Positions 43,566 to 64,000 of a stretch of 64,000 nt of DNA are shown here, piece by piece. The stretch is taken from IMG/VR virus record IMGVR_UViG_3300028805_000047. One strand, given 5' to 3'. Source of the stretch: a virus. Its lineage: Duplodnaviria; Heunggongvirae; Uroviricota; Caudoviricetes. A model generated the notes under the pieces. That model worked only from the letters and a program-made list of their open reading frames with translations, did not search any database and had not been told where the DNA came from. The stretch's first letter is position 1. Each line of letters begins with the position of its first letter. Both the position numbers and the translations under genes were made by a program.

Positions 43566-43568
43566 AAG

Positions 43569-44822: not shown

Positions 44823-44940
44823 ACAAAATTTTATACTTTATTATAAAATTTATAAATTTTGGAACATGAAGACAACAGATAGTATTCAAGAGCGTAAGAA
44901 AGGCGGTTGGTGGAATTCAATACTTATCAAATAACATTCA

Positions 44941-44962
44941 CATATAAATAATATAAATAAAG
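44941..44962 (+). promoter_or_regulatory. Two T4-type late boxes (TATAAATA) upstream of the 1193-aa gene
   Basis: 'catataaataatataaataaag' immediately upstream of the ATG at 44972. Confidence 0.45.
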
Positions 44963-44971
44963 TTTATAAAA

Positions 44972-48553: not shown

Positions 48554-48600
48554 TTTCACATAAATAAATTAAGTTTAATATTATTAATTAAATTCAGAAT

Positions 48601-49575: not shown

Positions 49576-49583
49576 AATTAAAT

Positions 49584-50213: not shown

Positions 50214-51594
50214 TAGTTGTATTTCTAGTTGGATATTTACAAAGATATTTAATCAAGAGATTAATCATCCATTAGTATGGTGTACAATAGATCCTGAATC
50301 AATGTGTAATTTAATTGAAAATTTTTATGCAATTGATTTTTCAAAATATTGTCTTAGAAAATATACTGATAGTACATTCTCAATAGTTATTGATAACAAA
50401 GTAAGAGTAAATTATGTTCATTATAAAAAAGATATTAATGAAAATAATATTAAAGTTATAGAAACAAATGTCTTTTATAATAAGATTGAAGATTTTATTA
50501 TACAGAAGTATGAACAAAGATTAAAAAGATTTAATAAAAATGATAAACCTGTATTTATTTTAGGATTTCCAAGTGATATTAAGTCAGAAGCAAATTATAC
50601 TAAAGATGACGTCAAAAAGATAATAGAACATAATATTAATAAATTTAAAATAATTACATGTATCAATGATTGTAATTATGGAGATGAAGTAATAAAATTT
50701 CCTAAAAATAAATTTATAGATAATGGTCTAGATTTTAGTACTTATATATATAATAATTCTAATATCTTAAAGGATATGAATCAATATTTTGAAAAGAAAA
50801 ATGAATTTATAGAATGGTGTAAAGGAAGATATAACCTAGATAATCCTAAAACTATTCAAGATAAAATACAATGGTTAAAATTAAATGATTCAACTGATTT
50901 AAAAACATGTTGTGCTGACAAAATTTTATTACATGATTACTGTAAAGAAAAACTTGGTAAAGATATTTGTATACCAGTTATTAAAGTATTTAATGATTTT
51001 TGTATAAATTTAAATGAATTACCAAAGCAGTTTGTATTAAAATGCAATCATGGTAGCGGTATGAATATTATTGTAAAAGATAGTAGTTTATTAGATATAG
51101 TTGATACTAAAAATAAACTTGAAAAATGGTTAAATAAAGATTTTGCATTTCAAAATCATTTTGAATATCATTATCATAATATTAAAAGAAAAATTTATGC
51201 TGAAAAATTTATGATTGATGAAAAACAAAAATCATCATTATATGATTATAAATTTTGGTGTTTTAATGGTGTACCTAAATTTTTTACAATAAATGAAGGT
51301 CATGGACATGGACCACTTATACACTATAATCTAGATGGATCAAGGTCAAGTATAGAAAGATTAGATCATTCAGTTCCTATAGGATTAGATTATGATAAAC
51401 CTAAAAACTTTGATTTAATGGTTGAATATGCAAAAACTTTGTCAAAAGATTTTAAGCTTGTCAGAGTTGATTTCTATGAAATAAATAATGAAGTTTATTT
51501 AGGTGAATTGACATTTACACCTGGTTCTGGAACTTTTAGATATAAGAATAGAGAAGATGAAATAGCTGTTGGAAATATGTTGAAACTTAAATAG
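50197..51594 (+). CDS. Protein with a C-terminal ATP-grasp ligase domain (465 aa)
   Basis: 'FVLKCNHGSGMNIIVKD' and 'LVRVDFYEINNEVYLGELTFTPGSG' parallel the ORF at 16955 and the ATP-grasp C-terminal block. Confidence 0.5.
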   Translation: MMLISNSCISSWIFTKIFNQEINHPLVWCTIDPESMCNLIENFYAIDFSKYCLRKYTDSTFSIVIDNKVRVNYVHYKKDINENNIKVIETNVFYNKIEDFIIQKYEQRLKRFNKNDKPVFILGFPSDIKSEANYTKDDVKKIIEHNINKFKIITCINDCNYGDEVIKFPKNKFIDNGLDFSTYIYNNSNILKDMNQYFEKKNEFIEWCKGRYNLDNPKTIQDKIQWLKLNDSTDLKTCCADKILLHDYCKEKLGKDICIPVIKVFNDFCINLNELPKQFVLKCNHGSGMNIIVKDSSLLDIVDTKNKLEKWLNKDFAFQNHFEYHYHNIKRKIYAEKFMIDEKQKSSLYDYKFWCFNGVPKFFTINEGHGHGPLIHYNLDGSRSSIERLDHSVPIGLDYDKPKNFDLMVEYAKTLSKDFKLVRVDFYEINNEVYLGELTFTPGSGTFRYKNREDEIAVGNMLKLK

Positions 51595-51634
51595 CATCTT
51601 TTATTGTTTATTATTAAAAACAAATTTTAAGATT

Positions 51635-52321
51635 ATGAATCCAACAGAGTATTTTTATTTTGACATTGAGACGTCAGGAGCTTACAGGGATATTCATACA
51701 ATGTACACGAAAACTCCAGAAATGTATAAATTGTTTATTCATAAAATGGAGAGGATGAGAGAAAAAGATCCAGCTATGAAAGATTCAAATATAGTTCCAT
51801 TATATCCTATGAAAGCTCCATTGTTTCCAGAGTTTGGCAGGATTGTATGTTTTTCGTACGCATATTTTGACAATGACAATTTATATCTTGATTCTGTTCA
51901 AAACCCTGATGAGGAACAGCTAATACATGGAATACTCGATGTTATCAATACAATAGTGATTCCTAAAAATTTAAAGCTTTGTGGATATAATATCAAAGGA
52001 TTTGACATACCGTATCTTTTCAAAAAATTCCTACACTATAAAATGACACCGCCTGCCTGTGTGAATTTCTTTAATAAGAAACCATGGGAGGTTGAATGTC
52101 TTGACCTTATGGAATTATGGAAGAATAATTCAAACCAGCAAATCGCGACATTAGAGGAATTCGCATTTGCCCTTGGTATAGAGTCACCTAAAACCGAGCT
52201 TTCAGGAGACAAGGTTCATGAGACATATTATAAAGGCGAGCATGAACTGGTTAAGAAATATTGTCAGCAGGATGTTATGTGTTGTGTTAAATGCGTTTAC
52301 GAAATTCAAAATTTAGTTTAA
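51635..52321 (+). CDS. DEDDy-type 3'-5' exonuclease (DnaQ-like), standalone 228 aa
   Basis: Exo I 'YFDIETSG', Exo II 'CGYNIKGFDIPYLF', Exo III 'YCQQDV' (YxxxD). Confidence 0.6.
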   Translation: MNPTEYFYFDIETSGAYRDIHTMYTKTPEMYKLFIHKMERMREKDPAMKDSNIVPLYPMKAPLFPEFGRIVCFSYAYFDNDNLYLDSVQNPDEEQLIHGILDVINTIVIPKNLKLCGYNIKGFDIPYLFKKFLHYKMTPPACVNFFNKKPWEVECLDLMELWKNNSNQQIATLEEFAFALGIESPKTELSGDKVHETYYKGEHELVKKYCQQDVMCCVKCVYEIQNLV

Positions 52322-52368
52322 CATAAATATATCGTATAAATTGTTGAACATTTAAAATATTTTAAGTT

Positions 52369-53127
52369 ATGCCAATACGAAAAGTACATGGAGGATATAA
52401 ATTCGGCAAGGTCGGAAAAGTATATCGAACAAAGAAAAAAGCTGAAAAACAAATGCGAGCAATGTATGCACATGGATTAGCTGAAGAGACCAAGGACCTG
52501 CCGACATTCAGTGCCGTAATAAATGAAGAAATTAATCCGCAAGTAGTAAATCATTCTTGGCAAGTATCTGATTTTATGAGAGGTGCTGAGCAAATTGATA
52601 AAAGTTTAACCGATTTGGTTGATAGTTTCTTGAATAATTTTGTCAATAAAATTTTTACATATTACTCACAGCAGGCTGATTTAAATGACAGTGATAAAAT
52701 TATAACGCCAATTGTCATAAGCCTTAATTCAGTAAGTTCTAAAAAACAATCAAAACCATTTGAAATCGTCATCGATTCAAATTATGAAGAACCATTATTA
52801 AATGATGGAAAGTACGGCCTTAGTGAAAAAACACGGTTTGTAAAAATAGATCAAGAAGATGATTATAAAACACTAGTCGGTAATATAATCTATTCTGATA
52901 GTGCGACAATGGAAACACTTGGTAAATTTTACTTTAATAAATTTTCACTCGGCCAGTCTTTTGTAATATCTATTAGAAATGAAGAAGGTGAAGGAACTCA
53001 ATATGCAAAACAGGCATTTGATTCAGGATGTAATGCAAATAATGGCATTATAGAATTTACTTTGAACAATTATCCTGATTTTGCTGAACTTGCTAATAAG
53101 TTTATAAATTCATTGAATACGTTATAA
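52369..53127 (+). CDS. Paralog of 32536..33390: conserved basic 47-aa N-terminal module with a divergent C-terminus (252 aa)
   Basis: 'MPIRKVHGGYKFGKVGKVYRTKKKAEKQMRAMYAHGLAEETKDLPTF...'. About 170 nt including the upstream leader are ~90% identical to 32505..32680. Confidence 0.55.
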   Translation: MPIRKVHGGYKFGKVGKVYRTKKKAEKQMRAMYAHGLAEETKDLPTFSAVINEEINPQVVNHSWQVSDFMRGAEQIDKSLTDLVDSFLNNFVNKIFTYYSQQADLNDSDKIITPIVISLNSVSSKKQSKPFEIVIDSNYEEPLLNDGKYGLSEKTRFVKIDQEDDYKTLVGNIIYSDSATMETLGKFYFNKFSLGQSFVISIRNEEGEGTQYAKQAFDSGCNANNGIIEFTLNNYPDFAELANKFINSLNTL

Positions 53128-53131
53128 TACT

Positions 53132-53521
53132 ATGGAAAATTTAAAAACTTTCAACAGCTTCATCAATGAAGCAGCTTCACTCGAAAAGGGACCTGATGGA
53201 ATGTATCATCCTAAATACAAGTTTGAGCTTAAAGCTCTTATGGAACAGTTGATAAAGAAAAGAGGTAATAGAGGTGATTTCAATGATATTGATACATCAA
53301 CCATTACTGATATGAGTGAATTATTTAAGTATAATAAAGAATTTAATGGAGATATTTCTAAATGGAATACAAGCAATGTCAAAGTCATGAAAGATATGTT
53401 CTTTAAAGCAGAAAAGTTTAATAGAGACATATCTCAATGGGATACAAGTAAAGTCACTGACATGAGTAATATGTTTGATGATTGTCCAATAAAAGAGGAA
53501 TATAAACCAAAATTCAAATAA
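53132..53521 (+). CDS. Short CTS-module protein with two or three DUF285-like repeats (129 aa)
   Basis: 'MENLKTFNSFINEAASLEKGPDGMYHPK...GDFNDIDTS...NGDISKWNTSNVKVMKDMF'. Confidence 0.55.
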   Translation: MENLKTFNSFINEAASLEKGPDGMYHPKYKFELKALMEQLIKKRGNRGDFNDIDTSTITDMSELFKYNKEFNGDISKWNTSNVKVMKDMFFKAEKFNRDISQWDTSKVTDMSNMFDDCPIKEEYKPKFK

Positions 53522-53560
53522 TAAGTAGGATTAAAAAATTCTTATCTAAAATACTTCAAA

Positions 53561-53597
53561 AACAACCCTGTCAGAAATGTCAGGGTTATTTTATTTT
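53561..53597 (+). terminator. Rho-independent terminator (conserved hairpin, copy 4, one mismatch)
   Basis: AACAACCCTG...CAGGGTTATT stem with a T-run. Confidence 0.8.
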
Positions 53598-53624
53598 AAA
53601 ATAATTTGAAAATTTTTCAAAATT

Positions 53625-53653
53625 TTGATCCAACTTTCAAAAATCTGTATTAT
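53625..53653 (+). promoter_or_regulatory. Sigma70-type promoter TTGATC-N17-TATTAT (copy 4)
   Basis: Same conserved element. Confidence 0.6.
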
Positions 53654-53690
53654 ATTTACCTCAACAAATTAACATTAAAACAATGAGGAT

Positions 53691-54122
53691 ATGAATACAA
53701 TTTATGTAATGAAGGACAAAGAATATTCAAGAGAAGAAGTTCTTGAGTCTTGGAACAGGGTGATAGCAGCTGTTGACAAATACTACAGCAAGGCTAAGAA
53801 AGTCTGTAGCTGGGATAACAAGTACAGTTTCTTTCGAGAATTCATTTTTCCTAAGACAAAGCTCTGGACATTTGATATTCTTAACAAAGCTGTTTTTAAT
53901 AAATTAAGAAGTTATGACACTCCGTTTCTAAGGCTTTCAAATGGATACATGCTTGACGGATTCGGACGTAATGTAACATATTTCAAGTTGGGAGAAAACG
54001 GATCGTGTTATTTCGATGATTTGGAAGGTAATAAAAGATATGGTATCGAATGTACACGATTCCTAAACGGTAATACAAGAGTAAGAATTTTTATCAGTGA
54101 ACAATTAAATATTAACAATTAA
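53691..54122 (+). CDS. Hypothetical protein (143 aa)
   Basis: SD 'gagga'; downstream of the conserved promoter. Confidence 0.5.
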   Translation: MNTIYVMKDKEYSREEVLESWNRVIAAVDKYYSKAKKVCSWDNKYSFFREFIFPKTKLWTFDILNKAVFNKLRSYDTPFLRLSNGYMLDGFGRNVTYFKLGENGSCYFDDLEGNKRYGIECTRFLNGNTRVRIFISEQLNINN

Positions 54123-54133
54123 AATTAAGGATT

Positions 54134-54673
54134 ATGAGAGAGGAAATTACAGAAAAGCTTGTGATCGTAAAGACTCCTAAAAAGATCACAATGTATGTTG
54201 CTGAAGATGGTACAAAATTTCAGGACAAGCAAGACTGCATATGTTATGAATTAAAGCCAAAATGGAATAATTGGCTTGAAAAGTTCGATGTGAAGGAAAT
54301 TGAATCCGAAAATTCTTCAACAGATACAATTGCATTTATGTATCATAAGGAATATGACAGTGAAATCCGGGAGTTCCTAAAAGCATATTCAAAATATTAT
54401 AAGTATGCCAAGGATGGTAAAATTTACCCTCGGTATCTAGGTAATCTTACAATAAGTGTATTAGGACATGTCGAAAATGAGATTAATAAAAAGGAATTTA
54501 TCGATAAGGAAATATACAAGTTTAATGTATATTATGATGAAGGAGATATTGACTATGAATATGGTACCTATGAGGTGGAATTTTTAGGTTGGGAAGAGGA
54601 GTCCTCAAAACTTCATGAGAAAATACAAGAACTTGAAAAAATATTTGGAAAGAAATTTATTATTAACAATTAA
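54134..54673 (+). CDS. Hypothetical protein (179 aa)
   Basis: SD 'aaggat'. Confidence 0.5.
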   Translation: MREEITEKLVIVKTPKKITMYVAEDGTKFQDKQDCICYELKPKWNNWLEKFDVKEIESENSSTDTIAFMYHKEYDSEIREFLKAYSKYYKYAKDGKIYPRYLGNLTISVLGHVENEINKKEFIDKEIYKFNVYYDEGDIDYEYGTYEVEFLGWEEESSKLHEKIQELEKIFGKKFIINN

Positions 54674-54685
54674 AATTAAACAGTT

Positions 54686-54934
54686 ATGAGTCCAGTAGTT
54701 CCACATTCGACATATACTCATCATAGTCATCATCAAGACAATTATAAACAAGTTTCGTTCACCTGTGATTCTTGTCATTCAAAATGTTATGTAAGCATAA
54801 AAGATGGTGACAATATTCCAAATGTGTGCAATTATTGTCAGATGACAACCTGTGAAAAAGCTGTATATAGCGGATTTGGAATATTTGTTTTTATAATAAT
54901 CGGAATTCTGATTGTAAAATGGTGCAGAGCATAA
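54686..54934 (+). CDS. Cys/His-rich small protein with a C-terminal membrane anchor (82 aa)
   Basis: 'CDSCHSKC...CNYCQMTTCEK' followed by 'GFGIFVFIIIGILIV'. Confidence 0.45.
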   Translation: MSPVVPHSTYTHHSHHQDNYKQVSFTCDSCHSKCYVSIKDGDNIPNVCNYCQMTTCEKAVYSGFGIFVFIIIGILIVKWCRA

Positions 54935-54968
54935 GAAAATTTGTTGTTTATTATTAAAAATTAAAATT

Positions 54969-55526
54969 ATGGCTTGGAATACTTTTAATAAGCAGACTGC
55001 TGACAGTACTGCAAATACTGCAAAGCTTTTATCTATAATCGCAGAAAAAAGTAAACTTATAGATCTTTTGCTAGACTCAATTGACCATTCATATCTCCAA
55101 ACTGACGGAACATATGGAGATTTGTCAAAAGAGGTTTCTGACAAAGTAGAATACATTAAAAAGTTAAAATATAAGAATAAACTTGATGATTATAAAAACC
55201 AAGAATCTCAAGAATTTAATACTGAAGAAATTAAGAACCTTGATGGTACAATCGTAAATTTCATTCTTCCAAGACTAAAAGCATTTAGGGAATTACGAGC
55301 TTCAACTCCAATAGAATTCGAAGAAGATGATTCAAATATTAAGAAATCAAGATTTGCGATGGATTTTAATTCTAAAGAAGATTGGCTTGCCTCACTTAAT
55401 TATATGATTGATTATTTTGAGAAATATGAAAAATATAAGAATAGTAAAAGTGGTTCATGGAAAGCAATGACTAATACGACTTTCCAAACACTTGGAGAAT
55501 GTTTTTCAAGACTTAACATTAAATAA
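54969..55526 (+). CDS. Hypothetical protein (185 aa)
   Basis: ORF tiling. Confidence 0.45.
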   Translation: MAWNTFNKQTADSTANTAKLLSIIAEKSKLIDLLLDSIDHSYLQTDGTYGDLSKEVSDKVEYIKKLKYKNKLDDYKNQESQEFNTEEIKNLDGTIVNFILPRLKAFRELRASTPIEFEEDDSNIKKSRFAMDFNSKEDWLASLNYMIDYFEKYEKYKNSKSGSWKAMTNTTFQTLGECFSRLNIK

Positions 55527-55554
55527 ATATGTTTGACTTTAATTATTAAAAATT

Positions 55555-55857
55555 ATGAATTCACTAATTATTATCATTCCGGGAATTTTGAATTTCCTTT
55601 GTTGGTTTTTACATTTAAATGCGACGCATGCAATGTCATTTTTGAAATTTTTAATTATTGTACCAATTTCATTTTGTCCTGTCATAAATATTGCATGTCT
55701 TATAATATTTATTATTTTAAGGCTCATAAATATTACTAATGATTATGAGAAGCTTAGTACATGTTATGATGAGGATAATCTTCTAGGCATGTCAAAAGAA
55801 ATTGACACTGATACGATAAGTGGAAAAATAATTAAGTTTTTTACTAAAAACAGATAA
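55555..55857 (+). CDS. Small two-helix membrane protein, copy A of a tandem paralog pair (100 aa)
   Basis: 'IIIPGILNFLCWFLHLNATHAMSFLKF...CPVINIACLIIFIIL...SGKIIKFFTKNR'. Two hydrophobic helices with the same architecture as the next ORF. Confidence 0.5.
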   Translation: MNSLIIIIPGILNFLCWFLHLNATHAMSFLKFLIIVPISFCPVINIACLIIFIILRLINITNDYEKLSTCYDEDNLLGMSKEIDTDTISGKIIKFFTKNR

Positions 55858-55860
55858 GAT

Positions 55861-56157
55861 ATGGATATGATGATACTCATTCCAGCAATATTAAATTTTT
55901 TGTGTTGGACAATACATTTAAGCGCTACAAAACGTCTCAGCTTTATAAAGTTTATATTTTTTACAGCTTTGTCAATTTGCCCTGTTGTAAATATACTGTC
56001 TCTTTTTGCATTTGTACTTTGTGCTGTGCTAAGAGCGATATGTACTTCTGAATTTTTTGAAGGATCTGATTTAAACAGTCCTTTCGGATTCTCTGTTGAA
56101 TATGACGAAACAACATTAAGCGGTAAACTGATAAAATTACTTTCAAAAGACAGATAA
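55861..56157 (+). CDS. Small two-helix membrane protein, copy B of the tandem paralog pair (98 aa)
   Basis: 'ILIPAILNFLCWTIHLSATKRLSFIKF...CPVVNILSLFAFVLC...SGKLIKLLSKDR'. Confidence 0.5.
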   Translation: MDMMILIPAILNFLCWTIHLSATKRLSFIKFIFFTALSICPVVNILSLFAFVLCAVLRAICTSEFFEGSDLNSPFGFSVEYDETTLSGKLIKLLSKDR

Positions 56158-56158
56158 G

Positions 56159-56365
56159 ATGGAAAATCCTAATTTGACGTTCAAACAATTCATAACTAAT
56201 ATTTTTAAGAAACTTTCCTGTTGCCATAAGTGGGAATTGTTGACAAAAACAGAACATATTGACAAATATCATGTATCTTTACCAAACGAGAAACCGTTAG
56301 TGAAATCAACAACTTATGTGTTTACATGTAAGAAATGTGGCAAACTTCGTAAGTTTACCGTGTAA
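56159..56365 (+). CDS. Small zinc-ribbon-like protein (68 aa)
   Basis: 'CCHKWELL...CKKCGKLRKF'. Confidence 0.4.
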   Translation: MENPNLTFKQFITNIFKKLSCCHKWELLTKTEHIDKYHVSLPNEKPLVKSTTYVFTCKKCGKLRKFTV

Positions 56366-56424
56366 TTACAATTTCTCAAATCTTATAAATAATTAAGAAG
56401 GTAAAGATTTAAAATTTTTAAGCT

Positions 56425-57648
56425 ATGACAAAAATAAACTCAAAAATTATCCGTCTCGACGGCGAAATAGTCGAGTCAGCTGATGTTGTTGAAAATTTAA
56501 TAAATGCGTTTGAAGATTCTGACGCAATGTCTCAGGATATTGACGATTTACATTCAGAAGCAATTTTAACAATTCTGACACATATTAAATCATCTGATGT
56601 TGATGACAGCTATGATTTGGAATTTAGAGAATTGAAAATAACTGATATTGATTTTCCAAGCCTTAACTTGTTTTATGACAAAGCTGCATATGTTATATTA
56701 AAAACTGTAAAGACGGTATTTAAAGATGTCGTTACAATTCTTGATGCACAGCATGAGTTATTTTCACAGACATTCTATGTTCCTGAACAAATGTTTTTCA
56801 CGGCATTGAATACAAAAATGAATGTCGATATGGCATATGAACAAGATTCTGTATCTGAATCATTCTTGAATAAAGTTTATTTGACAGGTACGGAATTGAG
56901 ATACTGTGACGAGTTCGCTCTTGAATCGAAAGAAGACAGAGAAGTAATCCACAATGTAATGCACAAAAATGATGTTGCATTGTATAAGTCAAATAAAAAG
57001 GTATTTGAAGCACTTTCAAAAATGTTCAACGTTGTAAAAACAGAAAACAAGAACATCTTTAAGTTATACCATAAACCACAAGGTTCTTCTGAATATGAAA
57101 ACCTCGGTGTACGTGTACGTTGTTCAAACAGACTGCTTGCATCTGTTGACACTTTCAAAATGAAATCTGAAAGTTCTATTCTTGAACTTAACAGAGAATC
57201 AAATGAAAGCTTGAATAATTATTATAAGACTAAAATAAACCAATTGCTTAAAGAAGAGAAGAAAGCGACAATCAACATCCCTAAGAATTGTCAATCTTTG
57301 ATTCTTGAATTCCTTCCAGTTCTTTGCACGCCTGAAACTGTAAATCAATGCGAGTTGACAACAACAGGAGTTGATACGCCGAAAATGGAAATCAAGTGTA
57401 ATGAAGAATTGCCTCAGGAACTTCAAAATAAGGTAAAAGACGCTATTGACAAAGCAAAATCAATCTACAATTCAAATGAGAGTGCTAAGAAAATTGTTAC
57501 GATGTACTATCAGATTAAAGAACTTTTGAAAGGTCTTACAGAAGATCAAGTTCGTAAAATGTCTCCTTTTGAACAGGATGAGATGATTTGGAATCTTTTA
57601 GCTATTAAGAATTCAAGTCAAAATAATGAAGAAGGCATGGTAGGTTAA
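56425..57648 (+). CDS. Hypothetical protein (407 aa)
   Basis: ORF tiling; followed by a terminator. Confidence 0.5.
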   Translation: MTKINSKIIRLDGEIVESADVVENLINAFEDSDAMSQDIDDLHSEAILTILTHIKSSDVDDSYDLEFRELKITDIDFPSLNLFYDKAAYVILKTVKTVFKDVVTILDAQHELFSQTFYVPEQMFFTALNTKMNVDMAYEQDSVSESFLNKVYLTGTELRYCDEFALESKEDREVIHNVMHKNDVALYKSNKKVFEALSKMFNVVKTENKNIFKLYHKPQGSSEYENLGVRVRCSNRLLASVDTFKMKSESSILELNRESNESLNNYYKTKINQLLKEEKKATINIPKNCQSLILEFLPVLCTPETVNQCELTTTGVDTPKMEIKCNEELPQELQNKVKDAIDKAKSIYNSNESAKKIVTMYYQIKELLKGLTEDQVRKMSPFEQDEMIWNLLAIKNSSQNNEEGMVG

Positions 57649-57673
57649 TTTATAGCCTACCATTCTTTATTTT
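57637..57673 (+). terminator. Rho-independent terminator overlapping the stop codon
   Basis: ATGGTAGG/CCTACCAT 8-bp stem, 11-nt loop, TCTTTATTTT tail. Confidence 0.7.
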
Positions 57674-57762
57674 CAGCATTTCGTTGTTTCTTATATAAGG
57701 AGTTTATTTAAGCTCCTATAATTGAAATTACACACTATAAAATACTAAACGGAACTAATAGT

Positions 57763-58884
57763 ATGATAAGCATTGAAAACAATGATTGGAAAGTTTGTCT
57801 TACAGAAAGTTATGACGGCTATAATCAGATAAGTTTTGTAAATGGAGTAGAAACAACAGATGGAGGAACACATGTAGACTATGTAATAAATGAAATTATT
57901 AAAAAATATAAAGCCTTGTTTGATAAGAAGAACAAGTGCAATGTTCCCCGTTCGCTAATTATTCTTAATTTTTTCATATTCATCAGTGCGACTGTAAAGA
58001 ATCCAAAATTCAGCTCGCAGACAAAGACTAAATTGGTTTCATCTTCTTCAGACTTCTATAATCCTATTGAAATTACTGACAAGTTCATAAAGGAATTATA
58101 TAAGTCAGAGATAACAAACCTTTTACTTGACATGCTTGCAAAGAAGAACGAGGCTGATGAACGGACGTCGCTCAGAAAACTTAATTCACAGCTGAAACGG
58201 CTTTCAGTAAAGAAACTTGTCGACTGCTCTCTTGCTGGAAAGGACAATATCAATACAAGCCTTTCAATAACTGAAGGTGATTCTGCGTCTGCAGGTTTCA
58301 GGAAATTCAGATCTGCCAAGACACAAGCTTTATATCCTATAAGGGGTAAATTATTGAATGTCAGATGTGCGAATAATTCCAAAATATACGCATCTGAAGA
58401 ACTGAAAGGAATTATGTCAGCTATGGGGCTTAAAATAGGCGAAGATCCGTTTAAGGATGGAAAATGCTCGCTCAGGATTGGTGAAATTAGAATATACTCT
58501 GATGCTGATACAGATGGCTCGCATATTGCTGGACTTATTTTGAATTTCGTCGCAAAATACTGGCCGTCGATGATAAAGAACCACAGACTTGCAAGAGTCA
58601 ATACACCGATTATAAAAGCGACAAATACAAAAAACAAATCTGAACAATACAGGTTTTACTACTTAAATGAATATAAGGAATGGGAAAAGACACATCAGGC
58701 TTCAAAGTATGCGATAGAATACTACAAGGGCCTTGGTGCACTTGACGACAAAGAATATCAAGAAATCGTTCAGAATCCGAATATCTATTATTATGAGTTG
58801 GATGATGTATATGAGGAGGAATTGGATATTTGGTTTGGTGACGACGCGGATAAAAGAAAGGAAAAAATGTCAAAAACAATTTAA
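57763..58884 (+). CDS. Type II topoisomerase ATPase-subunit fragment: C-terminal transducer and TOPRIM domains only (GyrB / T4 gp39-gp60-like); the GHKL ATPase domain is not encoded here
   Basis: 'NPKFSSQTKTKLVSS' (E. coli GyrB 'DPKFSSQTKDKLVSS'), 'SITEGDSASAGFRKFRSAKTQALYPIRGKLLNV' (TOPRIM EGDSAGG...PL+GKILNV) and 'IYSDADTDGSHIAGL'. The ORF begins mid-transducer ('SFVNGVETTDGGTHV'). Confidence 0.8.
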   Translation: MISIENNDWKVCLTESYDGYNQISFVNGVETTDGGTHVDYVINEIIKKYKALFDKKNKCNVPRSLIILNFFIFISATVKNPKFSSQTKTKLVSSSSDFYNPIEITDKFIKELYKSEITNLLLDMLAKKNEADERTSLRKLNSQLKRLSVKKLVDCSLAGKDNINTSLSITEGDSASAGFRKFRSAKTQALYPIRGKLLNVRCANNSKIYASEELKGIMSAMGLKIGEDPFKDGKCSLRIGEIRIYSDADTDGSHIAGLILNFVAKYWPSMIKNHRLARVNTPIIKATNTKNKSEQYRFYYLNEYKEWEKTHQASKYAIEYYKGLGALDDKEYQEIVQNPNIYYYELDDVYEEELDIWFGDDADKRKEKMSKTI

Positions 58885-59050
58885 TTTTTGTGAGTATGTC
58901 AGAGACAGAAGCAATTACAAAACGCCAGAAAAAATTGTCTGATAATAAGGATTCTATGAAAGTAGTCGTAAAAGTCAGCAATATTTTTTCAGATATTAAG
59001 AACTCAAACCAAGAAAAATTAAAAGTAACTGTTTAAAATTATAATTACAA

Positions 59051-60355
59051 ATGGACAACACAGATTCACATACGGAAGTCGTAATACTTTCATATATTGT
59101 ACAGAATCCAAATTATTTGAAGTTCCTGACTAAGAATATGTTTAGTTTCGACCTTCTTAACACAATAGTTGAAGAAATCAAAACCTTCTACTATGAGTTT
59201 AAGGAAATGCCGACTGAGACACAGTTAAGGAACCAAATGACTTTAAAGAACGGAGATGATCTTGACTTTGATGTCACACAGGCAATATCTGAAATATACA
59301 ATCACGATTATATCGAGGATGAATGGTGTCAGAAAACTACACAAGGATTTATTCAGTCAGTGACATTGAAGAAGAATATGACAAAGGCTGCTGAATACCT
59401 TAGTTCTATTGATATTTCTTTAAGTAATGCGGATGAGGCAGTCAATAAGGCACTTGATATGATTGATGCTACAAGGCAGATAAATTTCGATACCAATTTA
59501 GGTTCGAATTTCTTTGATCCTGAATCACACAAGCCTAAAAAACTGCAAACTGTACCTTATACGTTTTCAAGTATTGACAGAGCTATCGGCGGAATAGAAG
59601 TCGGTACGCTTACGGTATATCTTGGTGTTACAAATGTTGGTAAATCTGTATTTTTGTGTAATGATGCAGCATTTTATGTAAAGCAAGGTAAGAATGTGTT
59701 ATACATAACTTGTGAAATGTCAGAACAAAGAATTGGAGCACGTATTGCAAGAAACTTACTGAATTTGACAGGAGAAGAGTATGAGGCGATTTGTGAATCC
59801 AAATCTGGCATAAAACGAGAAATGGACAAATTTAAAACCTCGATGCTTAATAGGACCGGTAATCTTTGGATAAAGCAATATCCGCAAGGTACCTGTACCA
59901 CAATCGATATTGATAATTATATCAAAACGATTGAAGATAAAGAAGGATTTAAGGTCCATGTGGTTCTTGTCGACTATATCGGGATTATGGCGAATTACAG
60001 GAGCATGAATTCTGATAATACTTATAACTCCTTGAAATACATATCACAAGACCTAAGAGCAGTTGCAGTGAAGCAACAAGTTTCAGTAATAACAGCCTGT
60101 CAGCTTAACAGAGGTGCTTATGATTCTATGAATGATGTGGAAATTAAGAATATTTCAGAATCAAAAGCAGTTGCCGACAACTCTGACACAATTCTTGGTA
60201 TTATTCAGAATGATGCAATGAGAGAGGATAATACATATAAGTTAAAACCTGTCAAAGTCCGTGATGGAAAACGAGGAGACATTTATTGTAAGATTGATGT
60301 CGACTATGACAAAATGCAACTGTCTGAAAGACTTTTTGATGATGACGAAGAGTAA
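59051..60355 (+). CDS. DnaB-family replicative helicase (T4 gp41-like)
   Basis: Walker A 'LGVTNVGKSVFLCN', H2 'VVLVDYIGIM', H3 'ITACQLNRGAY'. N-terminal helical domain. Confidence 0.75.
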   Translation: MDNTDSHTEVVILSYIVQNPNYLKFLTKNMFSFDLLNTIVEEIKTFYYEFKEMPTETQLRNQMTLKNGDDLDFDVTQAISEIYNHDYIEDEWCQKTTQGFIQSVTLKKNMTKAAEYLSSIDISLSNADEAVNKALDMIDATRQINFDTNLGSNFFDPESHKPKKLQTVPYTFSSIDRAIGGIEVGTLTVYLGVTNVGKSVFLCNDAAFYVKQGKNVLYITCEMSEQRIGARIARNLLNLTGEEYEAICESKSGIKREMDKFKTSMLNRTGNLWIKQYPQGTCTTIDIDNYIKTIEDKEGFKVHVVLVDYIGIMANYRSMNSDNTYNSLKYISQDLRAVAVKQQVSVITACQLNRGAYDSMNDVEIKNISESKAVADNSDTILGIIQNDAMREDNTYKLKPVKVRDGKRGDIYCKIDVDYDKMQLSERLFDDDEE

Positions 60356-60380
60356 GGTATTTTTATTAAAAATTTAAAAC

Positions 60381-61097
60381 ATGGATGTAATTTTACCTTT
60401 ACACAGTGACATTTCAAAAACTGCACTACAAGACAATCTTGAAGCAAAATTTTGCATATACGGACTTTTTAAGAATTTCAAAGACTTAAACAGGTTGTTT
60501 ATTGTTACAAACACTGAAGTAGAGATAGATTCTATCAATTCTGAGGGTATTATAGACAAATCAAGGATAATATATGTAAATAGGGGAGATGATTGCGCAC
60601 AGGCGAAAGATGCTGTAATTATTGATAAGATTGCAGCAGTCATTTCAGCATATCCTGATTTATCTGAAGATTTTTTATTTATTTCAGATGACCAGCTTTT
60701 CATAAAACCTACTTATGCTTATGAAATCGTACCTTTAATAAGGGAAGGTATTACAGGTTCTGGAATTTATAGGAGACGAGTACAAAACACGCTTAACAGG
60801 TTTGAGAATCCAAAACTTATGGAACCTCACCAGCCAAATATCTTTAATAAGACAATGTTCAAGAAAATGATAAGTGAAATTGACTATATTAAAGAATTTG
60901 AATCAGTTGTAATTTATACATTATATTTCAACTATGTGAAAGAAGATGTCTTTACGTCTTGTCCAATATATTATCATGTCGGTGTTGAGGATGATAAGAT
61001 AATTCCTGATAATTGTAAAATTCTTGCATTCTGGAATGGTGCATTCAAGGATACAAAGTATAGGAACTTAATTAAAGAAAAATTATTTTCAAAATAA
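60381..61097 (+). CDS. Hypothetical protein (238 aa)
   Basis: ORF tiling. Confidence 0.45.
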   Translation: MDVILPLHSDISKTALQDNLEAKFCIYGLFKNFKDLNRLFIVTNTEVEIDSINSEGIIDKSRIIYVNRGDDCAQAKDAVIIDKIAAVISAYPDLSEDFLFISDDQLFIKPTYAYEIVPLIREGITGSGIYRRRVQNTLNRFENPKLMEPHQPNIFNKTMFKKMISEIDYIKEFESVVIYTLYFNYVKEDVFTSCPIYYHVGVEDDKIIPDNCKILAFWNGAFKDTKYRNLIKEKLFSK

Positions 61098-61118
61098 TTT
61101 GAAAATTTTCTAATGATT

Positions 61119-61147
61119 TTAATTCAACTTTCAAAAACTTGTATTAT
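61119..61147 (+). promoter_or_regulatory. Diverged copy of the conserved promoter element (TTAATT-N17-TATTAT)
   Basis: Spacer and -10 are conserved, -35 is degenerate. Followed by a TATAAATA-like box ('ttataaatatatcat') at about 61185. Confidence 0.4.
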
Positions 61148-61229
61148 ATTTACCTTAACAAATTAAATAACAGAGTTAAACAAATAATTATAAATATATC
61201 ATAATATAAGTTAAGCCTTAAAAAAGATT

Positions 61230-62072
61230 ATGGAAAATTTAAAGACTTTTAGAAGTTTCATCAATGAAGCAGCTTCAATAGAAAAAGGTTCTGACGGAAT
61301 ATATCACCCTCAAAATAAAGAAGAATTAAAATCACTTATTAAACAGCTTATAGAAGAAAGAGGTTATGAAGGTGATTTTAATGATATAGATACATCTGCA
61401 TTGACTGATTTTAGAGGTGTGTTCTATGAAATGAAATCTTTTAATGGTGACATTTCCAAATGGAATGTTAGTAATGCTACAGATATGTATGGCATGTTTC
61501 AACGGGCAGAAAGTTTCAATAGAGATATATCTAAATGGAATGTGAGTAAAGTACGAGAGATGGGATGTATGTTCTGTGATGCCTATGCTTTCAATCAACC
61601 TATAGGTGGTTGGGATGTACATAATGTGTTCGATATGGCATATATGTTCTGTAATGCTAAAAATTTTAATCAAGACCTCAATTCATGGAATCTTGACAGT
61701 GCTGATATGGTTAACGGTATGTTTAAAGGAGCTACACATTTTAATCAAGACTTGAATAAATGGAATATGTCTAAAATACATTCTACACATGCTATGTTTG
61801 CCTATGCAGAAAACTTTAATGGTGATATATCTACATGGGATGTTCGTCGAGTTGAAGACATGCATGACATGTTTCTTCATGCAATAGAATTTAACGGAGC
61901 AATTGGAAATTGGAATGTGTCAAATGTAAAAACAATGGTTGGAATGTTTGCGTATGCGAAGTGCTTTAACCAAGACTTGAGAGACTGGAATATTGACAAT
62001 GTAAAATACTACAATTATATGTTTGAAGGTTGTTCTATTAAAGATGTGTACAAGCCTAAGTTCAAAAACTAA
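61230..62072 (+). CDS. CTS-module protein with DUF285/BspA-like repeats (280 aa)
   Basis: 'MENLKTFRSFINEAASIEKGSDGIYHPQ...GDFNDIDTS', then about eight 'FN.DIS.WNVS.V..M..MF' repeats. Confidence 0.6.
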   Translation: MENLKTFRSFINEAASIEKGSDGIYHPQNKEELKSLIKQLIEERGYEGDFNDIDTSALTDFRGVFYEMKSFNGDISKWNVSNATDMYGMFQRAESFNRDISKWNVSKVREMGCMFCDAYAFNQPIGGWDVHNVFDMAYMFCNAKNFNQDLNSWNLDSADMVNGMFKGATHFNQDLNKWNMSKIHSTHAMFAYAENFNGDISTWDVRRVEDMHDMFLHAIEFNGAIGNWNVSNVKTMVGMFAYAKCFNQDLRDWNIDNVKYYNYMFEGCSIKDVYKPKFKN

Positions 62073-62122
62073 ATTTCAATAAATTATATAACAACCAAAA
62101 TGATAAATTTTTGTAAAAACAC

Positions 62123-62151
62123 TTGACTTTTCTAAATACAATCTATATATT
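62123..62151 (+). promoter_or_regulatory. Near-consensus sigma70 promoter TTGACT-N17-TATATT in an otherwise non-coding 250-bp region
   Basis: Exact 17-nt spacer, followed by two stem-loops (62204..62220 and 62224..62258) and no ORF until 62323. Confidence 0.45.
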
Positions 62152-62157
62152 GCAAAT

Positions 62158-62262
62158 ATGAAAAGTAGTTGATGAGTCTTACATAGGTGAGATAGTCAAT
62201 AGAGGCTGGTTGTTCCAGCCGGTAAAGTTTAGAAATCTGTATCAAATTCCTAAACTTTATAA
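62158..62262 (+). ncRNA. Candidate small structured RNA (about 100 nt) downstream of the sigma70-like promoter
   Basis: Hairpins GGCTGG-ttgtt-CCAGCC and AAAGTTTAG-17 nt-CTAAACTTT. No coding potential. A 3' U-tract is not clean. Confidence 0.25.
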
Positions 62263-62322
62263 ATAAATTCGTATAATTGGTAATAATTTTAATAGGATTT
62301 AGAACATTTTAATATAAAAATT

Positions 62323-63282
62323 ATGGAAAATTTAAAAACTTTCAGAAATTTCATCAATGAAGCAGTTTCAATAGAAAAAGGTACTGATGGTATGTATCAT
62401 CCTAAAAGTAAAGATGAGCTTGAAGCACTTATAGAACAGTTGATAAGTGAAAGAGGTAATGAAGGTGATTTCAATGACATTGACACTTCTCTTGTCACAG
62501 ACATGAACTACTTGTTCTTTCAGAAGAATGACTTCAACGGTGACATAAGCAAGTGGGACACTAGCAATGTCACAGACATGAGTGCGATGTTCTGCCAATG
62601 TGACAAGTTCAACTGTGACATCTCTGGCTGGGACACTAGCAATGTCACGAACATGAACTCAATGTTCACTTGGTGCAAAGAGTTCAACCAAGACATCAGC
62701 AACTGGAACACAAGGAATGTGAAGAGCATCTCAAACATGTTCTTCAGAGCAGAGAAGTTCAATCAGCCAGTCGGAAAGTGGGACACGGGGAATGTCAAAG
62801 ACATGAGCCACACATTTGAGTATGCGCTATCTTTCAATCAAGACTTGAGCAAGTGGAGCACGAAGAAAGTGAAGACTATGGAGAAGATGTTCTATGAAGC
62901 GAAAGCGTTCAACAGCGATGTGACAACTTGGGACACTAAGAATGTGAAAGATTTCAACGGAATGTTCTGTGGAGCAAGCTCTTTCAATCAAGACATAAGT
63001 AAGTGGAACACAAGCAAAGCGATTGACATGTGTGGAATGTTCTGCAATGCAACTTCTTTCAACCAAGACATCTCTTGTTGGGACACGAGCAATGTAGAAG
63101 GCGTCTATGAGATGTTCTGGGGAGCAAAAAGCTTTGATCAAGACTTGAGCGGATGGAAGCTTGAGAAAGTCGATAGCTGGATTGACAAGATGTTTGACCA
63201 CGACTACAAGAACGGAATGCCACGCAAATATGTCGAGATGAGTGGAGCTTTCATGAACATGTTCAAAAATCTTCGAAGATAA
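62323..63282 (+). CDS. CTS-module protein with DUF285/BspA-like repeats (319 aa); chimeric, with an AT-rich native N-terminal module and a GC-richer repeat body
   Basis: 'MENLKTFRNFINEAVSIEKGTDGMYHPK...GDFNDIDTS', then repeats. From about 62480 codon usage switches to C/G-ending codons (AAC, AAG, TTC, GAC, ATC), unlike every other gene in the window. Confidence 0.6.
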   Translation: MENLKTFRNFINEAVSIEKGTDGMYHPKSKDELEALIEQLISERGNEGDFNDIDTSLVTDMNYLFFQKNDFNGDISKWDTSNVTDMSAMFCQCDKFNCDISGWDTSNVTNMNSMFTWCKEFNQDISNWNTRNVKSISNMFFRAEKFNQPVGKWDTGNVKDMSHTFEYALSFNQDLSKWSTKKVKTMEKMFYEAKAFNSDVTTWDTKNVKDFNGMFCGASSFNQDISKWNTSKAIDMCGMFCNATSFNQDISCWDTSNVEGVYEMFWGAKSFDQDLSGWKLEKVDSWIDKMFDHDYKNGMPRKYVEMSGAFMNMFKNLRR

Positions 63283-63318
63283 TTAAAGAAGAATATAAAC
63301 CTCATTTTAATTAAAATT

Positions 63319-63660
63319 ATGGAATTTAAGACATTCAATACATTTATAAACGAATCATCTAAACATATGAAAACTTTTGCAGAACTTAAAAGAGGTAATT
63401 ACATTTATTACTATTCAGGTAACTTAAAAGCAGCTAAGCAGCTTAGATTCAAAAAACTAGAAGGTAAAAATCTATTTTTTACTTTCGACGGTGAAGAGTT
63501 TTATTTTAGTATTAAAGATGTTGATACAGGAGTTTGTGCAAACCTTAACACAAGGACAATGATTAAACGACGTTATATCATTTGTACCGATAAAACTGAA
63601 TTCATTGAACGACTTAGTAAAATAGGTGTCAATATTACAGACAAAGACATTATAAAATAA
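63319..63660 (+). CDS. Small protein with a CTS-like N-terminus (MEFKTFNTFINESS) (113 aa)
   Basis: N-terminal motif similarity; followed by a bidirectional terminator. Confidence 0.45.
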   Translation: MEFKTFNTFINESSKHMKTFAELKRGNYIYYYSGNLKAAKQLRFKKLEGKNLFFTFDGEEFYFSIKDVDTGVCANLNTRTMIKRRYIICTDKTEFIERLSKIGVNITDKDIIK

Positions 63661-63682
63661 TCATTTTTATATAGTCAATTAC

Positions 63683-63720
63683 AAATGCCTCTTATTAGCT
63701 TTAATGAGAGGCATTTTTAT
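63683..63720. terminator. Bidirectional rho-independent terminator between convergent genes
   Basis: AAATGCCTCT/AGAGGCATTT 10-bp stem, flanked by A-run and T-run. Confidence 0.7.
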
Positions 63721-64000
63721 CTCGATATAGTAAAGTTAATTGCGAATGAGTATTTTGTCAAAGCTTCTTTATCAATAACAGTTTTCTTAATAAGTTGGTC
63801 GCTTGTGTCAGACAATGCATGTGATTCAAGAAGCTTATATCCTTGTTCTTCCTTTTCAGCATCAGTTACAGACATATCATAATCATTTACAATTTCAGAA
63901 GATGTATGTTCTTTTTTGATATACAGGTTTGCTGATTCTATATGATAGAAAGACAACAAGTTTTCTTTTATGTAATCTTTTGCAAAATCCAAATTAGACG
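63717..64000 (-). CDS. Hypothetical protein on the minus strand, probably truncated at the window edge
   Basis: A 91-aa-plus ORF ending at the bidirectional terminator; more plausible than the overlapping short plus-strand ORF. Confidence 0.35.
   Translation of the reverse strand, partial: SNLDFAKDYIKENLLSFYHIESANLYIKKEHTSSEIVNDYDMSVTDAEKEEQGYKLLESHALSDTSDQLIKKTVIDKEALTKYSFAINFTISR

What the first reader, a model, noticed from the sequence alone, without database searches (positions are those of the whole stretch)
62323..63282. Chimeric gene: native AT-rich CTS module fused to a GC-rich, differently codon-biased repeat body
The first ~160 nt of this gene match the AT-rich N-terminal module of its paralogs. 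From about 62480 onward synonymous positions switch to C/G-ending codons (AAC, AAG, TTC, GAC, ATC, AGC), raising local GC to roughly 45% against about 30% elsewhere. This is also why several long minus-strand ORFs appear here in the track. It looks like recent capture of a foreign DUF285 cassette by recombination at the conserved module.
Basis: seen in the sequence. Interest (0 to 1): 0.6.

Follow-up and report, generated by a model that had tools for sequence, protein, structure and literature searches.

The report
Phage gene with a swapped-in foreign body
One copy of a repeated phage gene family kept its own start and a scrap of its own end, but its middle was recently replaced by the matching part of a gene from a related, more GC-rich phage: a clean but ordinary example of how phages trade gene parts.

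Summary
Gene 62323..63282 (DUF285, 319 aa) has GC3 0.16 in codons 1-49 and 0.62 in codons 50-319. The other 68 genes of the window average 0.229 (maximum 0.348), so z = 7.2.

- Window 62449..63284 is 97.7% identical in DNA to a DUF285 gene on a 40.6% GC metagenome contig (L003). That contig has different flanks and its own N-terminus.
- An 88.9-kb viral contig of 39.9% GC (L002) carries a full-length ortholog at 80% nt identity.
- The first about 126 nt resemble the window's own paralogs instead (79-84% nt identity).
- Just past the stop codon, out of frame, lies IKEEYKPHFN*, the C-terminal tail typical of the native paralogs.

So the repeat body of a resident paralog was replaced. The left crossover lies in a conserved stretch (62449..62481). 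The right join shares only 3 nt of microhomology.

An independent assembly is identical across both junctions, and no cellular genome holds a close relative. The phage is T4-like and encodes a UvsX-like recombinase. The shared N-terminal tag resembles the T4 capsid targeting sequence, but packaging is untested.

This is a new member of a known kind, of moderate interest.

The parts
62258..62265 (+). TATAAATA motif (T4 late-promoter consensus) 57 nt upstream of the start codon, in native AT-rich sequence
   Evidence: 19 of the 23 TATAAATA in the window lie within 80 nt upstream of a same-strand ORF start. These include the prohead protease gene, the major capsid gene and tagged genes F, C, D, A and B. 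The 55 same-composition permutations give a mean of 21% and a maximum of 57%.
62323..63282 (+). Chimeric DUF285 gene B (319 aa), with about nine 25-residue repeats
   Evidence: ORF. Pfam PF03382 E 1.7e-95. 25-residue periodicity of FN and W. AlphaFold2 model with pLDDT 91.4: helix 2-14, helix 30-44, solenoid about 47-285.
62323..62448 (+). Native part: the tag MENLKTFRNFINE|A plus the N-terminal cap. AT-rich codons.
   Evidence: GC3 0.16 over codons 1-49. 79-84% nt identity to paralogs A, C, D and E against 71% to L003. Alignments.
62449..62481 (+). Left crossover zone, encoding ERGNEGDFNDI. This stretch is conserved in the native paralogs and in the donor lineage.
   Evidence: The blastn matches to L003 and to L002 both begin at 62449. 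6 of the 19 differences from L003 fall in 62457..62481, where B carries paralog-type bases. The first donor-type bases are at 62478 and 62482.
62482..63284 (+). Foreign block: the repeat body, the donor-type C-terminus, the stop codon and 2 nt beyond
   Evidence: 13 differences in 803 nt from L003 2789..3591 (98.4%), 8 synonymous and 5 not. GC3 0.62. 80.4% nt identity to the L002 ortholog. Only 37-43% aa identity to native paralogs.
63282..63314 (+). Out-of-frame remnant of the resident gene's own 3' end: ATTAAAGAAGAATATAAACCTCATTTTAATTAA = IKEEYKPHFN*
   Evidence: it matches the C-terminal tails of E (CPIKEEYKPKFK*), D (CPIKEEFKPRF*) and A (CSIKDVYKPKFKN*); the pattern occurs only 4 times in all six frames of the window, namely the three native C-termini and this site. 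19-21 of 27 nt are identical to the native tails.
61230..62072 (+). Native paralog A (DUF285, 280 aa, GC3 0.27), directly upstream
27996..28955 (+). Native paralog C (DUF285, 319 aa, GC3 0.20)
29141..29977 (+). Native paralog D (DUF285, 278 aa, GC3 0.20)
53132..53521 (+). Native short paralog E (DUF285, 129 aa). Its module is the closest to that of B.
25122..25490 (+). Gene F: the same 14-residue tag on an unrelated cargo (LPD11 domain)
   Evidence: (PF18824, E 7.9e-25)
63319..63660 (+). Gene G: a diverged tag (MEFKTFNTFINES) on another cargo. Native composition (GC3 0.21).
12531..13748 (+). UvsX-like recombinase, the phage's own homologous-recombination enzyme (context)
   Evidence: phrog_97, E 2.7e-55; RecA, E 1.7e-17
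2120..3904 (+). gp21-type prohead protease (Peptidase_S77) with a repeat-rich C-terminal part (context for the CTS reading)
   Evidence: phrog_207, E 1.1e-36; PF03420, E 2.6e-13, above the cut-off
4002..5681 (+). gp23-type major capsid protein (context)
   Evidence: PF07068, E 6.8e-15

Best explanation
Gene B is a recombinant. A resident member of this T4-like phage's own DUF285 family carried the N-terminal tag and cap, about nine 25-residue repeats, and the tail ...CPIKEEYKP.F*. Its repeat body was replaced by the corresponding part of a homologous gene from a related phage lineage of about 40% GC. L003 and L002 represent that lineage.

Shown:
- The left exchange happened inside a ~30-nt stretch (62449..62481, encoding ERGNEGDFNDI) that both lineages conserve.
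- The right end was joined with only the trinucleotide ATT shared, just after the donor's stop codon. This left the resident gene's own tail as a non-coding, out-of-frame remnant.
- The event is recent: 98.4% identity to L003 inside the block and no visible drift of the foreign codons towards AT.
- The chimera is intact and sits downstream of the resident gene's late-promoter-like TATAAATA motif.

Inferred:
- The exchange took place during co-infection of one host and used the phage's own UvsX-type recombination system, which in T4 needs only short patches of homology.

Inferred more weakly:
- The shared tag MENLKTF..FINE|A acts like the T4 capsid targeting sequence. On that reading the family is a set of late-expressed, capsid-packaged and injected LRR-like proteins whose cargo part is exchangeable.
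For: Compositional break at codon ~50: GC3 0.16 versus 0.62, z = 7.2 against 68 genes.

Segment-wise incongruence:
- Module: 79-84% nt identity to native paralogs, 71% to L003.
- Body: 97% aa and 98% nt identity to L003, 79% aa to L002, 37-43% aa to native paralogs.

Donor context:
- The match to L003 covers exactly 62449..63284 and nothing else nearby.
- L003 is 40.6% GC and its other genes have GC3 0.38-0.56. L002 is 39.9% GC, with GC3 0.44 for the ortholog and 0.45 for its neighbours.
- L003 also encodes a 65% aa homolog of window gene 5838..6401. L002 shares a UvsX homolog at 68.6% nt identity. The donors are therefore related phages.
- No cellular genome representative exceeds 41% identity. 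No protein cluster listed exceeded 56%.

Junctions:
- Native-tail remnant IKEEYKPHFN* at 63282..63314.
- Crossover zone in alignment A4; right junction in A5.

Not an assembly artefact: L001, from a separate Logan assembly, is 100% identical over 2748 nt spanning both junctions. The protein is on 3 contigs.

Recombination machinery: UvsX-like recombinase. T4-type recombination needs less than 50 bp of homology (PMC2839356).

Tag reading:
- T4 CTS is MKTYQEFIAE (PMC8442874); the tag here has K-T-F-x-x-F-I-x-E.
- S77 protease and gp23-type capsid protein are present.
- The tag sits on unrelated cargos in this clade only.
- TATAAATA lies upstream of head genes and tagged genes.
- DUF285 proteins were found in purified virions of a giant virus (PMC7507832).
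Against: - The immediate donor is not in hand. L003 is a 4.3-kb fragment, and its own copy has a higher GC3 (0.63) than its neighbours (0.47 pooled). L003 may itself be a recipient from a third, GC-richer source.
- No close relative of the window phage was found that still carries the unreplaced gene, so the 'before' state is inferred from the remnant alone.
- Co-infection and a shared host are not shown.
- For the tag: mature B would be acidic (pI 4.9), unlike the highly basic T4 internal proteins. No cleavage or packaging data exist.
Confidence: 0.88

Rival explanations
1. Both the window phage and the L003 phage received the body from an unseen third source that is richer in GC3 (another phage of the clade, or a cellular genome). 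L003 would then be a fellow recipient, not the donor lineage.
For: The L003 copy has GC3 0.63, against 0.47 pooled (0.38-0.56) for its neighbours. The L002 ortholog, at GC3 0.44, fits its genome better but is only 80% identical.
Against: In L003 the gene is colinear with the L002 ortholog over its whole length, including the lineage-specific N-terminus (..SMQPKDN.ELK.LMEQLIEERGNEG) and C-terminus. This fits vertical presence in that clade. Cellular genomes gave at most 41% identity. GC3 0.63 is not far above L003's highest neighbour (0.56).
Confidence: 0.2
2. Metagenome assembly chimera: reads of a 30% GC phage and a 40% GC phage were joined at the shared module.
For: The window comes from uncultured material, and the left junction lies in a sequence repeated in several paralogs and shared between lineages.
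Against: The block is flanked by native sequence on both sides. The right junction shares only 3 nt, which no overlap or k-mer assembler would bridge. The junction zone 62457..62481 differs from L003 at 6 sites. An independently assembled Logan contig (L001) is 100% identical over 2748 nt spanning both junctions, and the exact protein is on 3 contigs.
Confidence: 0.03
3. No transfer took place: the C/G-ending codons reflect translational selection or a codon bias intrinsic to DUF285 repeats.
For: The highly expressed capsid gene prefers TTC (0.85) and somewhat TAC and CAC.
Against: The capsid gene keeps GAG at 0.03, AAG at 0.25 and overall GC3 at 0.22, whereas the body of B has GAG 0.78 and AAG 0.60. 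The four native DUF285 paralogs have GC3 0.23. This rival also cannot explain 98% DNA identity to L003 confined to the body.
Confidence: 0.01
4. Opposite direction: the body originated in the window phage and moved into the L003/L002 lineage.
For: Sequence identity alone carries no direction.
Against: The body's codon usage is alien to the window (z = 7.2) and close to that of the 40% GC contigs. L002 and L003 carry full-length colinear orthologs that diverged from each other by 20%, so the gene is old in that lineage. In the window the block is bracketed by native module and native tail remnants.
Confidence: 0.03

Closest known systems
[quoted passage not shown]
   Same: T-even IPs are a diverse set of cargo proteins that share only a conserved N-terminal tag (PMC3012670). 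The tag is MKTYQEFIAE and is cleaved off by the prohead protease (PMC8442874). Here 6-7 genes share MENLKTF..FINE|A (K-T-F/Y-x-x-F-I-x-E) on DUF285, LPD11 and unknown cargos. The phage encodes an S77 protease and a gp23-type capsid protein. One cargo has been exchanged between phages.
   Different: The cargo is a ~35-kDa acidic LRR-like repeat protein (pI 4.9) rather than a small basic protein. The DUF285 members share a further ~35-residue cap beyond the tag, and the crossover is at the end of that cap, not in the tag. Packaging and cleavage are untested.
PeSL-mediated modular shuffling in T4-type phages (promoter plus stem-loop cassettes; PMC2839356, PMC4122927)
   Same: In both cases non-essential genes are exchanged between related T4-like phages by recombination at short conserved sequences. 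Tagged genes C, D, E and F here are flanked by a conserved terminator hairpin and a promoter-bearing element.
   Different: At gene B neither junction lies in an intergenic cassette. The left one is inside the coding module and the right one is illegitimate. No terminator-like hairpin occurs in 61000..63800. The promoter motif here is the late type (TATAAATA), not the early sigma-70 type.
PARCEL / DUF285 / BspA-like repeat genes as horizontally mobile repeat cassettes (PMC2996958)
   Same: Same Pfam family and 25-residue tandem repeat. That paper infers HGT and intragenomic shuffling, and reports dyad symmetry of the coding DNA that favours antisense open frames.
   Different: Here both junctions are mapped and a donor-lineage copy is 98% identical. 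The context is a T4-like phage family with a shared N-terminal tag instead of membrane-targeting signals.
Classical phage mosaicism (modular evolution by recombination between co-infecting phages)
   Same: A segment of foreign ancestry with sharp boundaries, one at a conserved sequence and one illegitimate, and a functional in-frame product.
   Different: Nothing essential. This case is distinguished only by the large GC3 contrast, which makes the segment visible without any comparison.

Membership tests
DUF285 / BspA-like 25-26-residue repeat proteins (PF03382; PARCEL) | Match to the Pfam DUF285 model above the gathering score | tested here: met
   315.4 bits against a cut-off of 25, E 1.7e-95, three stretches
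DUF285 / BspA-like 25-26-residue repeat proteins (PF03382; PARCEL) | Tandem ~25-residue amphipathic repeats forming a solenoid | tested here: met
   FN at residues 71, 96, 121, 146, 171, 196, 221 and 246, and W at 78, 103..., 278. AlphaFold2 model with pLDDT 91.4 and one short strand per 25 residues. Only weak LRR matches in the PDB (best E 1e-3, TM 0.33).
Horizontally acquired or recombinant gene segment | Compositional discontinuity relative to the host genome | tested here: met
   GC3 0.62 against 0.229 +/- 0.054 (z = 7.2). The module has 0.16.
Horizontally acquired or recombinant gene segment | Different nearest relatives for adjacent segments | tested here: met
   The module is nearest to native paralogs (79-84% nt). 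The body is nearest to L003 (98% nt) and L002 (80% nt).
Horizontally acquired or recombinant gene segment | Donor-type sequence present in a different genomic context | tested here: met
   The flanks of L003 (radical SAM gene and others) and of L002 are unrelated to window 61000..64000.
Horizontally acquired or recombinant gene segment | Reproducible in independent assemblies (not an artefact) | tested here: met
   L001 is 100% identical over 2748 nt across both junctions. The protein is on 3 contigs. Read-level support could not be checked.
T4-type CTS-tagged internal (capsid-packaged) proteins | N-terminal ~10-residue tag resembling MKTYQEFIAE and ending in (I/L)-x-E | tested here: met
   MENLKTFRNFINE|A compared with MKTYQEFIAE: K-T-F/Y-x-x-F-I-x-E. 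The tag is conserved on 6-7 genes with different cargos.
T4-type CTS-tagged internal (capsid-packaged) proteins | Phage encodes a gp21-family prohead protease and a gp23-type capsid protein | tested here: met
   PF03420 E 2.6e-13 and PF07068 E 6.8e-15, both above their cut-offs; phrog_207
T4-type CTS-tagged internal (capsid-packaged) proteins | Tag is cleaved off and the protein is present inside mature heads and injected | not testable with these tools
   Needs virion mass spectrometry. The only indirect support is the late-promoter-like motif shared with head genes.
T4-type CTS-tagged internal (capsid-packaged) proteins | Small, highly basic protein | tested here: not met
   Mature B is 35.6 kDa with pI 4.86. 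A, C, D and F are also acidic. T4 internal proteins are described as highly basic.
PeSL-type cassette shuffling | Exchange points lie in conserved intergenic promoter plus stem-loop elements flanking the gene | tested here: not met
   The left junction is in coding sequence and the right junction has 3 nt of microhomology. No terminator-like hairpins in 61000..63800. Such elements do flank C, D, E and F.

The most novel reading that the evidence does not exclude
In this clade of T4-like phages, DUF285/BspA-like LRR proteins and other cargos such as LPD11 domains are capsid-targeted, protease-processed, injected proteins. On this reading they are an 'internal protein' arsenal whose tag is recognisably related to the T4 CTS. 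The conserved tag-plus-cap coding sequence would also serve as a recombination handle, letting cargo bodies move between phages of very different base composition. That would assign a first role to the DUF285 families that are expanded in many large phages and giant viruses.
Probability: 0.3. Interest if true: 0.6.

Novelty: new member of a known kind. Interest (0 to 1): 0.4.

Why it matters
The case documents a single, recent exchange between phages. Both junctions are mapped, a donor-lineage copy is 98% identical, and a scar of the replaced gene survives. It shows that phages of one clade with 30% and 40% GC still exchange parts of genes, and that one homologous crossover plus one illegitimate join is enough.

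It also points to a testable idea. The multi-copy DUF285 genes of large phages may be late-expressed, capsid-delivered proteins carrying a T4-like targeting tag. The mechanism of mosaicism itself is textbook knowledge, so the value lies in the example and the lead, not in a new principle.

Tried and rejected
- Annotated phage records (INPHARED): no DNA match for 61100..63700 in 'distant' mode or for 40000..64000 in 'near' mode. By tblastn all hits were below 60% identity (39-45% among the listed records), mostly in jumbo phages.
- Large protein search with B: no cluster above 56% identity among the 120 listed. The exact sequences of B and of the L003 and L002 proteins are not in the cluster table.
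- Relatives that might lack the copy: flanking genes 60381..61097 and G gave no relatives in IMG/VR. Exact-protein look-ups for B and G returned the same three contigs, and A is not on record.
- Cellular donor: the genome-contig scan gave at most 41% identity.
- Translational selection: rejected on codon patterns.
- Amelioration signal: among the synonymous differences from L003, 4 have AT in B and 3 have GC in B, so the count is uninformative.
- PeSL-type junctions: rejected for B.
- Sample origin: a literature search for the run and sample identifiers found nothing.
- Fold search against the PDB: only weak generic LRR matches.
- Late sigma factor: only a weak hit, 20376..20948 to phrog_351 at E 2.5e-4.

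Full report
**1.

The ORF 62323..63282 (+, 319 aa) is intact and is a strong DUF285 protein (PF03382, E 1.7e-95).
- In 30-codon windows GC3 is 0.17 for the first ~150 nt. It climbs between 62440 and 62500 and stays at 0.47-0.77 to the stop.
- Codons 1-49 have GC3 0.16 and codons 50-319 have 0.62.
- The other 68 genes of the window average 0.229 (sd 0.054, maximum 0.348), giving z = 7.2.
- No 100-codon window in any other gene exceeds 0.43, while the body gives 0.56-0.70.
- Local GC is 0.39-0.455 against 0.303 for the window.

The minus-strand ORFs are real and follow from the codon switch. The longest antisense open run is 150 codons. The same protein recoded with native codons gives 68 +/- 16, and 0 of 500 recodings reach 150.

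**2. The family**

Six genes start with MENLKTF.SFINEA or a near variant:
- F at 25122, with an LPD11 cargo.
- C at 27996, D at 29141, E at 53132, A at 61230 and B at 62323, all DUF285.

G at 63319 has a diverged version of the tag. The DUF285 members share a longer module of about 50 residues. At the DNA level B is 79-84% identical to its paralogs over that module.

**3. The donor lineage**

- *L002.* A scan of IMG/VR found one close relative, L002 (an 88.9-kb viral contig, 39.9% GC). It has a full-length ortholog at 77% aa identity overall. Identity is 80-90% over residues 37-300 but only 57-60% over the first 36 residues.
- *L003.* The metagenome scan found L003 (4314 bp, 40.6% GC). Its DUF285 gene is 97.7% identical in DNA to window 62449..63284 (836 nt). 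Nothing else in L003 matches the neighbourhood of B. L003's own N-terminus differs (…LKSYNEFINESAAISMQPKDNKELKTLMEQLIEERGNEGNFNDVDTS). Its neighbours are a radical-SAM gene, a DUF6717 gene and others, with GC3 0.38-0.56.
- *Both are phages related to the window phage.* L003 encodes a 65% aa homolog of window gene 5838..6401. L002 carries a family-B DNA polymerase, an LPD11 protein, tagged genes and a UvsX homolog at 68.6% nt identity to the window's.
- *No cellular source.* Cellular genome representatives gave at most 41% identity. The 5.8-billion-cluster protein search listed nothing above 56%.

**4. The junctions**

*Left.* The L003 and L002 matches both start at 62449.
- Upstream of that point B follows the native paralogs, for example ...CAGTTGATAAGT like E, against CAGCTCATTGAA in L003.
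- Within 62457..62481 B carries paralog-type bases at six positions that differ from L003.
- From 62482 on it is donor-type.
- The crossover therefore lies in 62449..62481. This stretch encodes ERGNEGDFNDI, which both lineages conserve.

*Right.* Identity to L003 runs through the stop codon to 63284 and then ends abruptly. Immediately there, out of frame, the window reads ATTAAAGAAGAATATAAACCTCATTTTAATTAA, which translates to IKEEYKPHFN*.
- This is the C-terminal tail of the native paralogs: E has CPIKEEYKPKFK*, D has CPIKEEFKPRF* and A has CSIKDVYKPKFKN*.
- The pattern occurs only four times in all six frames of the 64-kb window: the three native C-termini and this site.
- Donor and resident sequences share only ATT at the join.

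The resident gene thus kept its 5' module and a scrap of its 3' end, and its repeat body was replaced.

Inside the block there are 13 differences from L003 in 803 nt (98.4% identity), 8 synonymous and 5 not. There is no clear drift toward AT. The event is recent relative to the divergence of the two phages.

**5. Rivals**

- *Misassembly.* The right junction has no shared k-mer. An independent Logan assembly (L001) is 100% identical over 2748 nt across both junctions, and the protein is on three contigs.
- *Translational selection.* The capsid gene favours TTC but has GAG 0.03 and AAG 0.25, whereas the body of B has GAG 0.78 and AAG 0.60. The native DUF285 paralogs have GC3 0.23.
- *Reverse transfer.* This does not fit the codon usage, the old colinear orthologs in L002 and L003, or the native remnants that bracket the block.
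- *A third, unseen source for both B and L003.* This remains possible, because the L003 copy (GC3 0.63) lies above its neighbours (0.47 pooled). It changes the name of the donor, not the nature of the event.

**6. How it most likely works**

The window phage is T4-like. It has a tail sheath, a gp25-like wedge protein, a Peptidase_S77 (gp21-type) prohead protease, a gp23-type capsid protein and a UvsX-like recombinase. It also has DnaB-type helicase and type II topoisomerase pieces.

T4-type recombination needs only short homology (PMC2839356). A ~30-nt conserved stretch at the end of the module is therefore a sufficient left crossover site during co-infection. The right end was closed illegitimately.

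The AlphaFold2 model (pLDDT 91.4) places the junction at the boundary between an N-terminal helical cap (helices 2-14 and 30-44) and the first repeat of the solenoid. This explains why the chimera can fold.

**7. The tag**

Evidence for a targeting role:
- The T4 CTS is MKTYQEFIAE, and it is cleaved off after packaging (PMC8442874).
- T-even internal proteins are diverse apart from this tag (PMC3012670).
- The tag here, MENLKTFRNFINE|A, shares K-T-F/Y-x-x-F-I-x-E and ends in the I-x-E motif.
- Among 100 fetched loci the tag occurs only in this phage clade, and on unrelated cargos.
- TATAAATA, the T4 late-promoter consensus (my own knowledge of T4 biology), occurs 23 times in the window. Nineteen lie within 80 nt upstream of a same-strand ORF. 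These include the protease gene, the capsid gene and tagged genes F, C, D, A and B. Same-composition controls average 21%.
- DUF285 proteins have been detected in virions of a giant virus (PMC7507832).

Evidence against:
- The mature proteins are acidic and about 30-35 kDa, unlike T4 internal proteins.
- Nothing here tests cleavage or packaging.

I treat the capsid-targeting role as a reasonable inference (about 0.3-0.4), not as a finding.

**8. Comparison and verdict**

The gene is a member of DUF285/PARCEL. The event is an instance of phage mosaicism. It works most like cargo exchange at T-even internal-protein loci and like PeSL-type modular shuffling. It is not PeSL-mediated, because neither junction lies in an intergenic cassette. 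Conserved terminator and promoter elements do flank the other tagged genes.

Novelty: a new member of a known kind. Interest is moderate. This is a very clean example and a useful lead on DUF285 function, but not a surprise to a phage geneticist.

Noticed in passing
window, 23 sites (e.g. 2063, 3973, 25095, 27958, 29103, 39830, 44952, 61189, 62258; minus strand 8204, 10493, 20119): TATAAATA, the T4 late-promoter consensus, is strongly positioned. 19 of 23 copies lie 12-74 nt upstream of a same-strand ORF start, including head, baseplate and tail-fibre-like genes and the tagged genes. This suggests a gp55-type late transcription system.
   Followed up: partly
window 25493..25600, 28958..29070, 29985..30100, 53530..53640: A conserved ~70-110-nt element follows tagged genes F, C, D and E. 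It has a motif AAATTCTTATCTAAAATACTT, then a G+C-rich hairpin (AACAACCCTG...CAGGGTTGTT) with a T-run (terminator-like), then TATTATATTTAC. This resembles T4-type promoter/terminator cassettes that flank mobile genes. A and B lack it.
   Followed up: partly
window 3082..3371 (inside prohead protease gene 2120..3904): 5.7 tandem copies of a 51-nt unit encode KDQLDAYSKMISENAVT. Each copy carries an I-S-E motif of the kind cut by gp21-type proteases, so this may be a self-cleaving scaffold-like extension of the protease.
   Followed up: no
window 43287..44822: An IS607/IS605-type insertion: a truncated serine-resolvase fragment (92 aa) followed by an OrfB/TnpB-like gene with a Cas12f-like TNB domain (417 aa), inside a phage genome.
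   Followed up: no
window 32536..33390 and 52369..53127: Two genes share a nearly identical N-terminus (MPIRKVHGGYKFGKVGKVYRTKKKAEKQMRAMYA.GLAEE) but have no Pfam match. This is a second family with a shared N-terminal module. The second copy sits directly upstream of tagged gene E.
   Followed up: no
window 49584..51594: Two adjacent genes form the opposite compositional extreme, with GC 0.22-0.23 and GC3 0.10-0.11. One is a TupA-like ATP-grasp enzyme. Related phages L029 and L031 have a homolog at 68% nt identity.
   Followed up: no
window 25122..25490; L002 7688..9283: The same N-terminal tag sits on an LPD11 domain ('large polyvalent protein-associated domain 11') in the window. In L002 an LPD11 domain lies in a 531-aa protein next to the DUF285 ortholog. 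This suggests a common 'delivered protein' gene neighbourhood.
   Followed up: no
window 20376..20948: A 190-aa protein gives a weak hit to a phage RNA polymerase sigma factor family (phrog_351, E 2.5e-4). It is the size of T4 gp55 and is a candidate late sigma factor.
   Followed up: no
L003 2630..2670: The annotated start of the L003 gene (MKNKKIKDMLKSYNEFINES) probably lies 8 codons too far upstream. From the second Met it reads MLKSYNEFINE|S, so the donor-lineage gene carries the tag too. A terminator-like hairpin (GCTTCT...AGAAGC followed by T6) lies just upstream.
   Followed up: no
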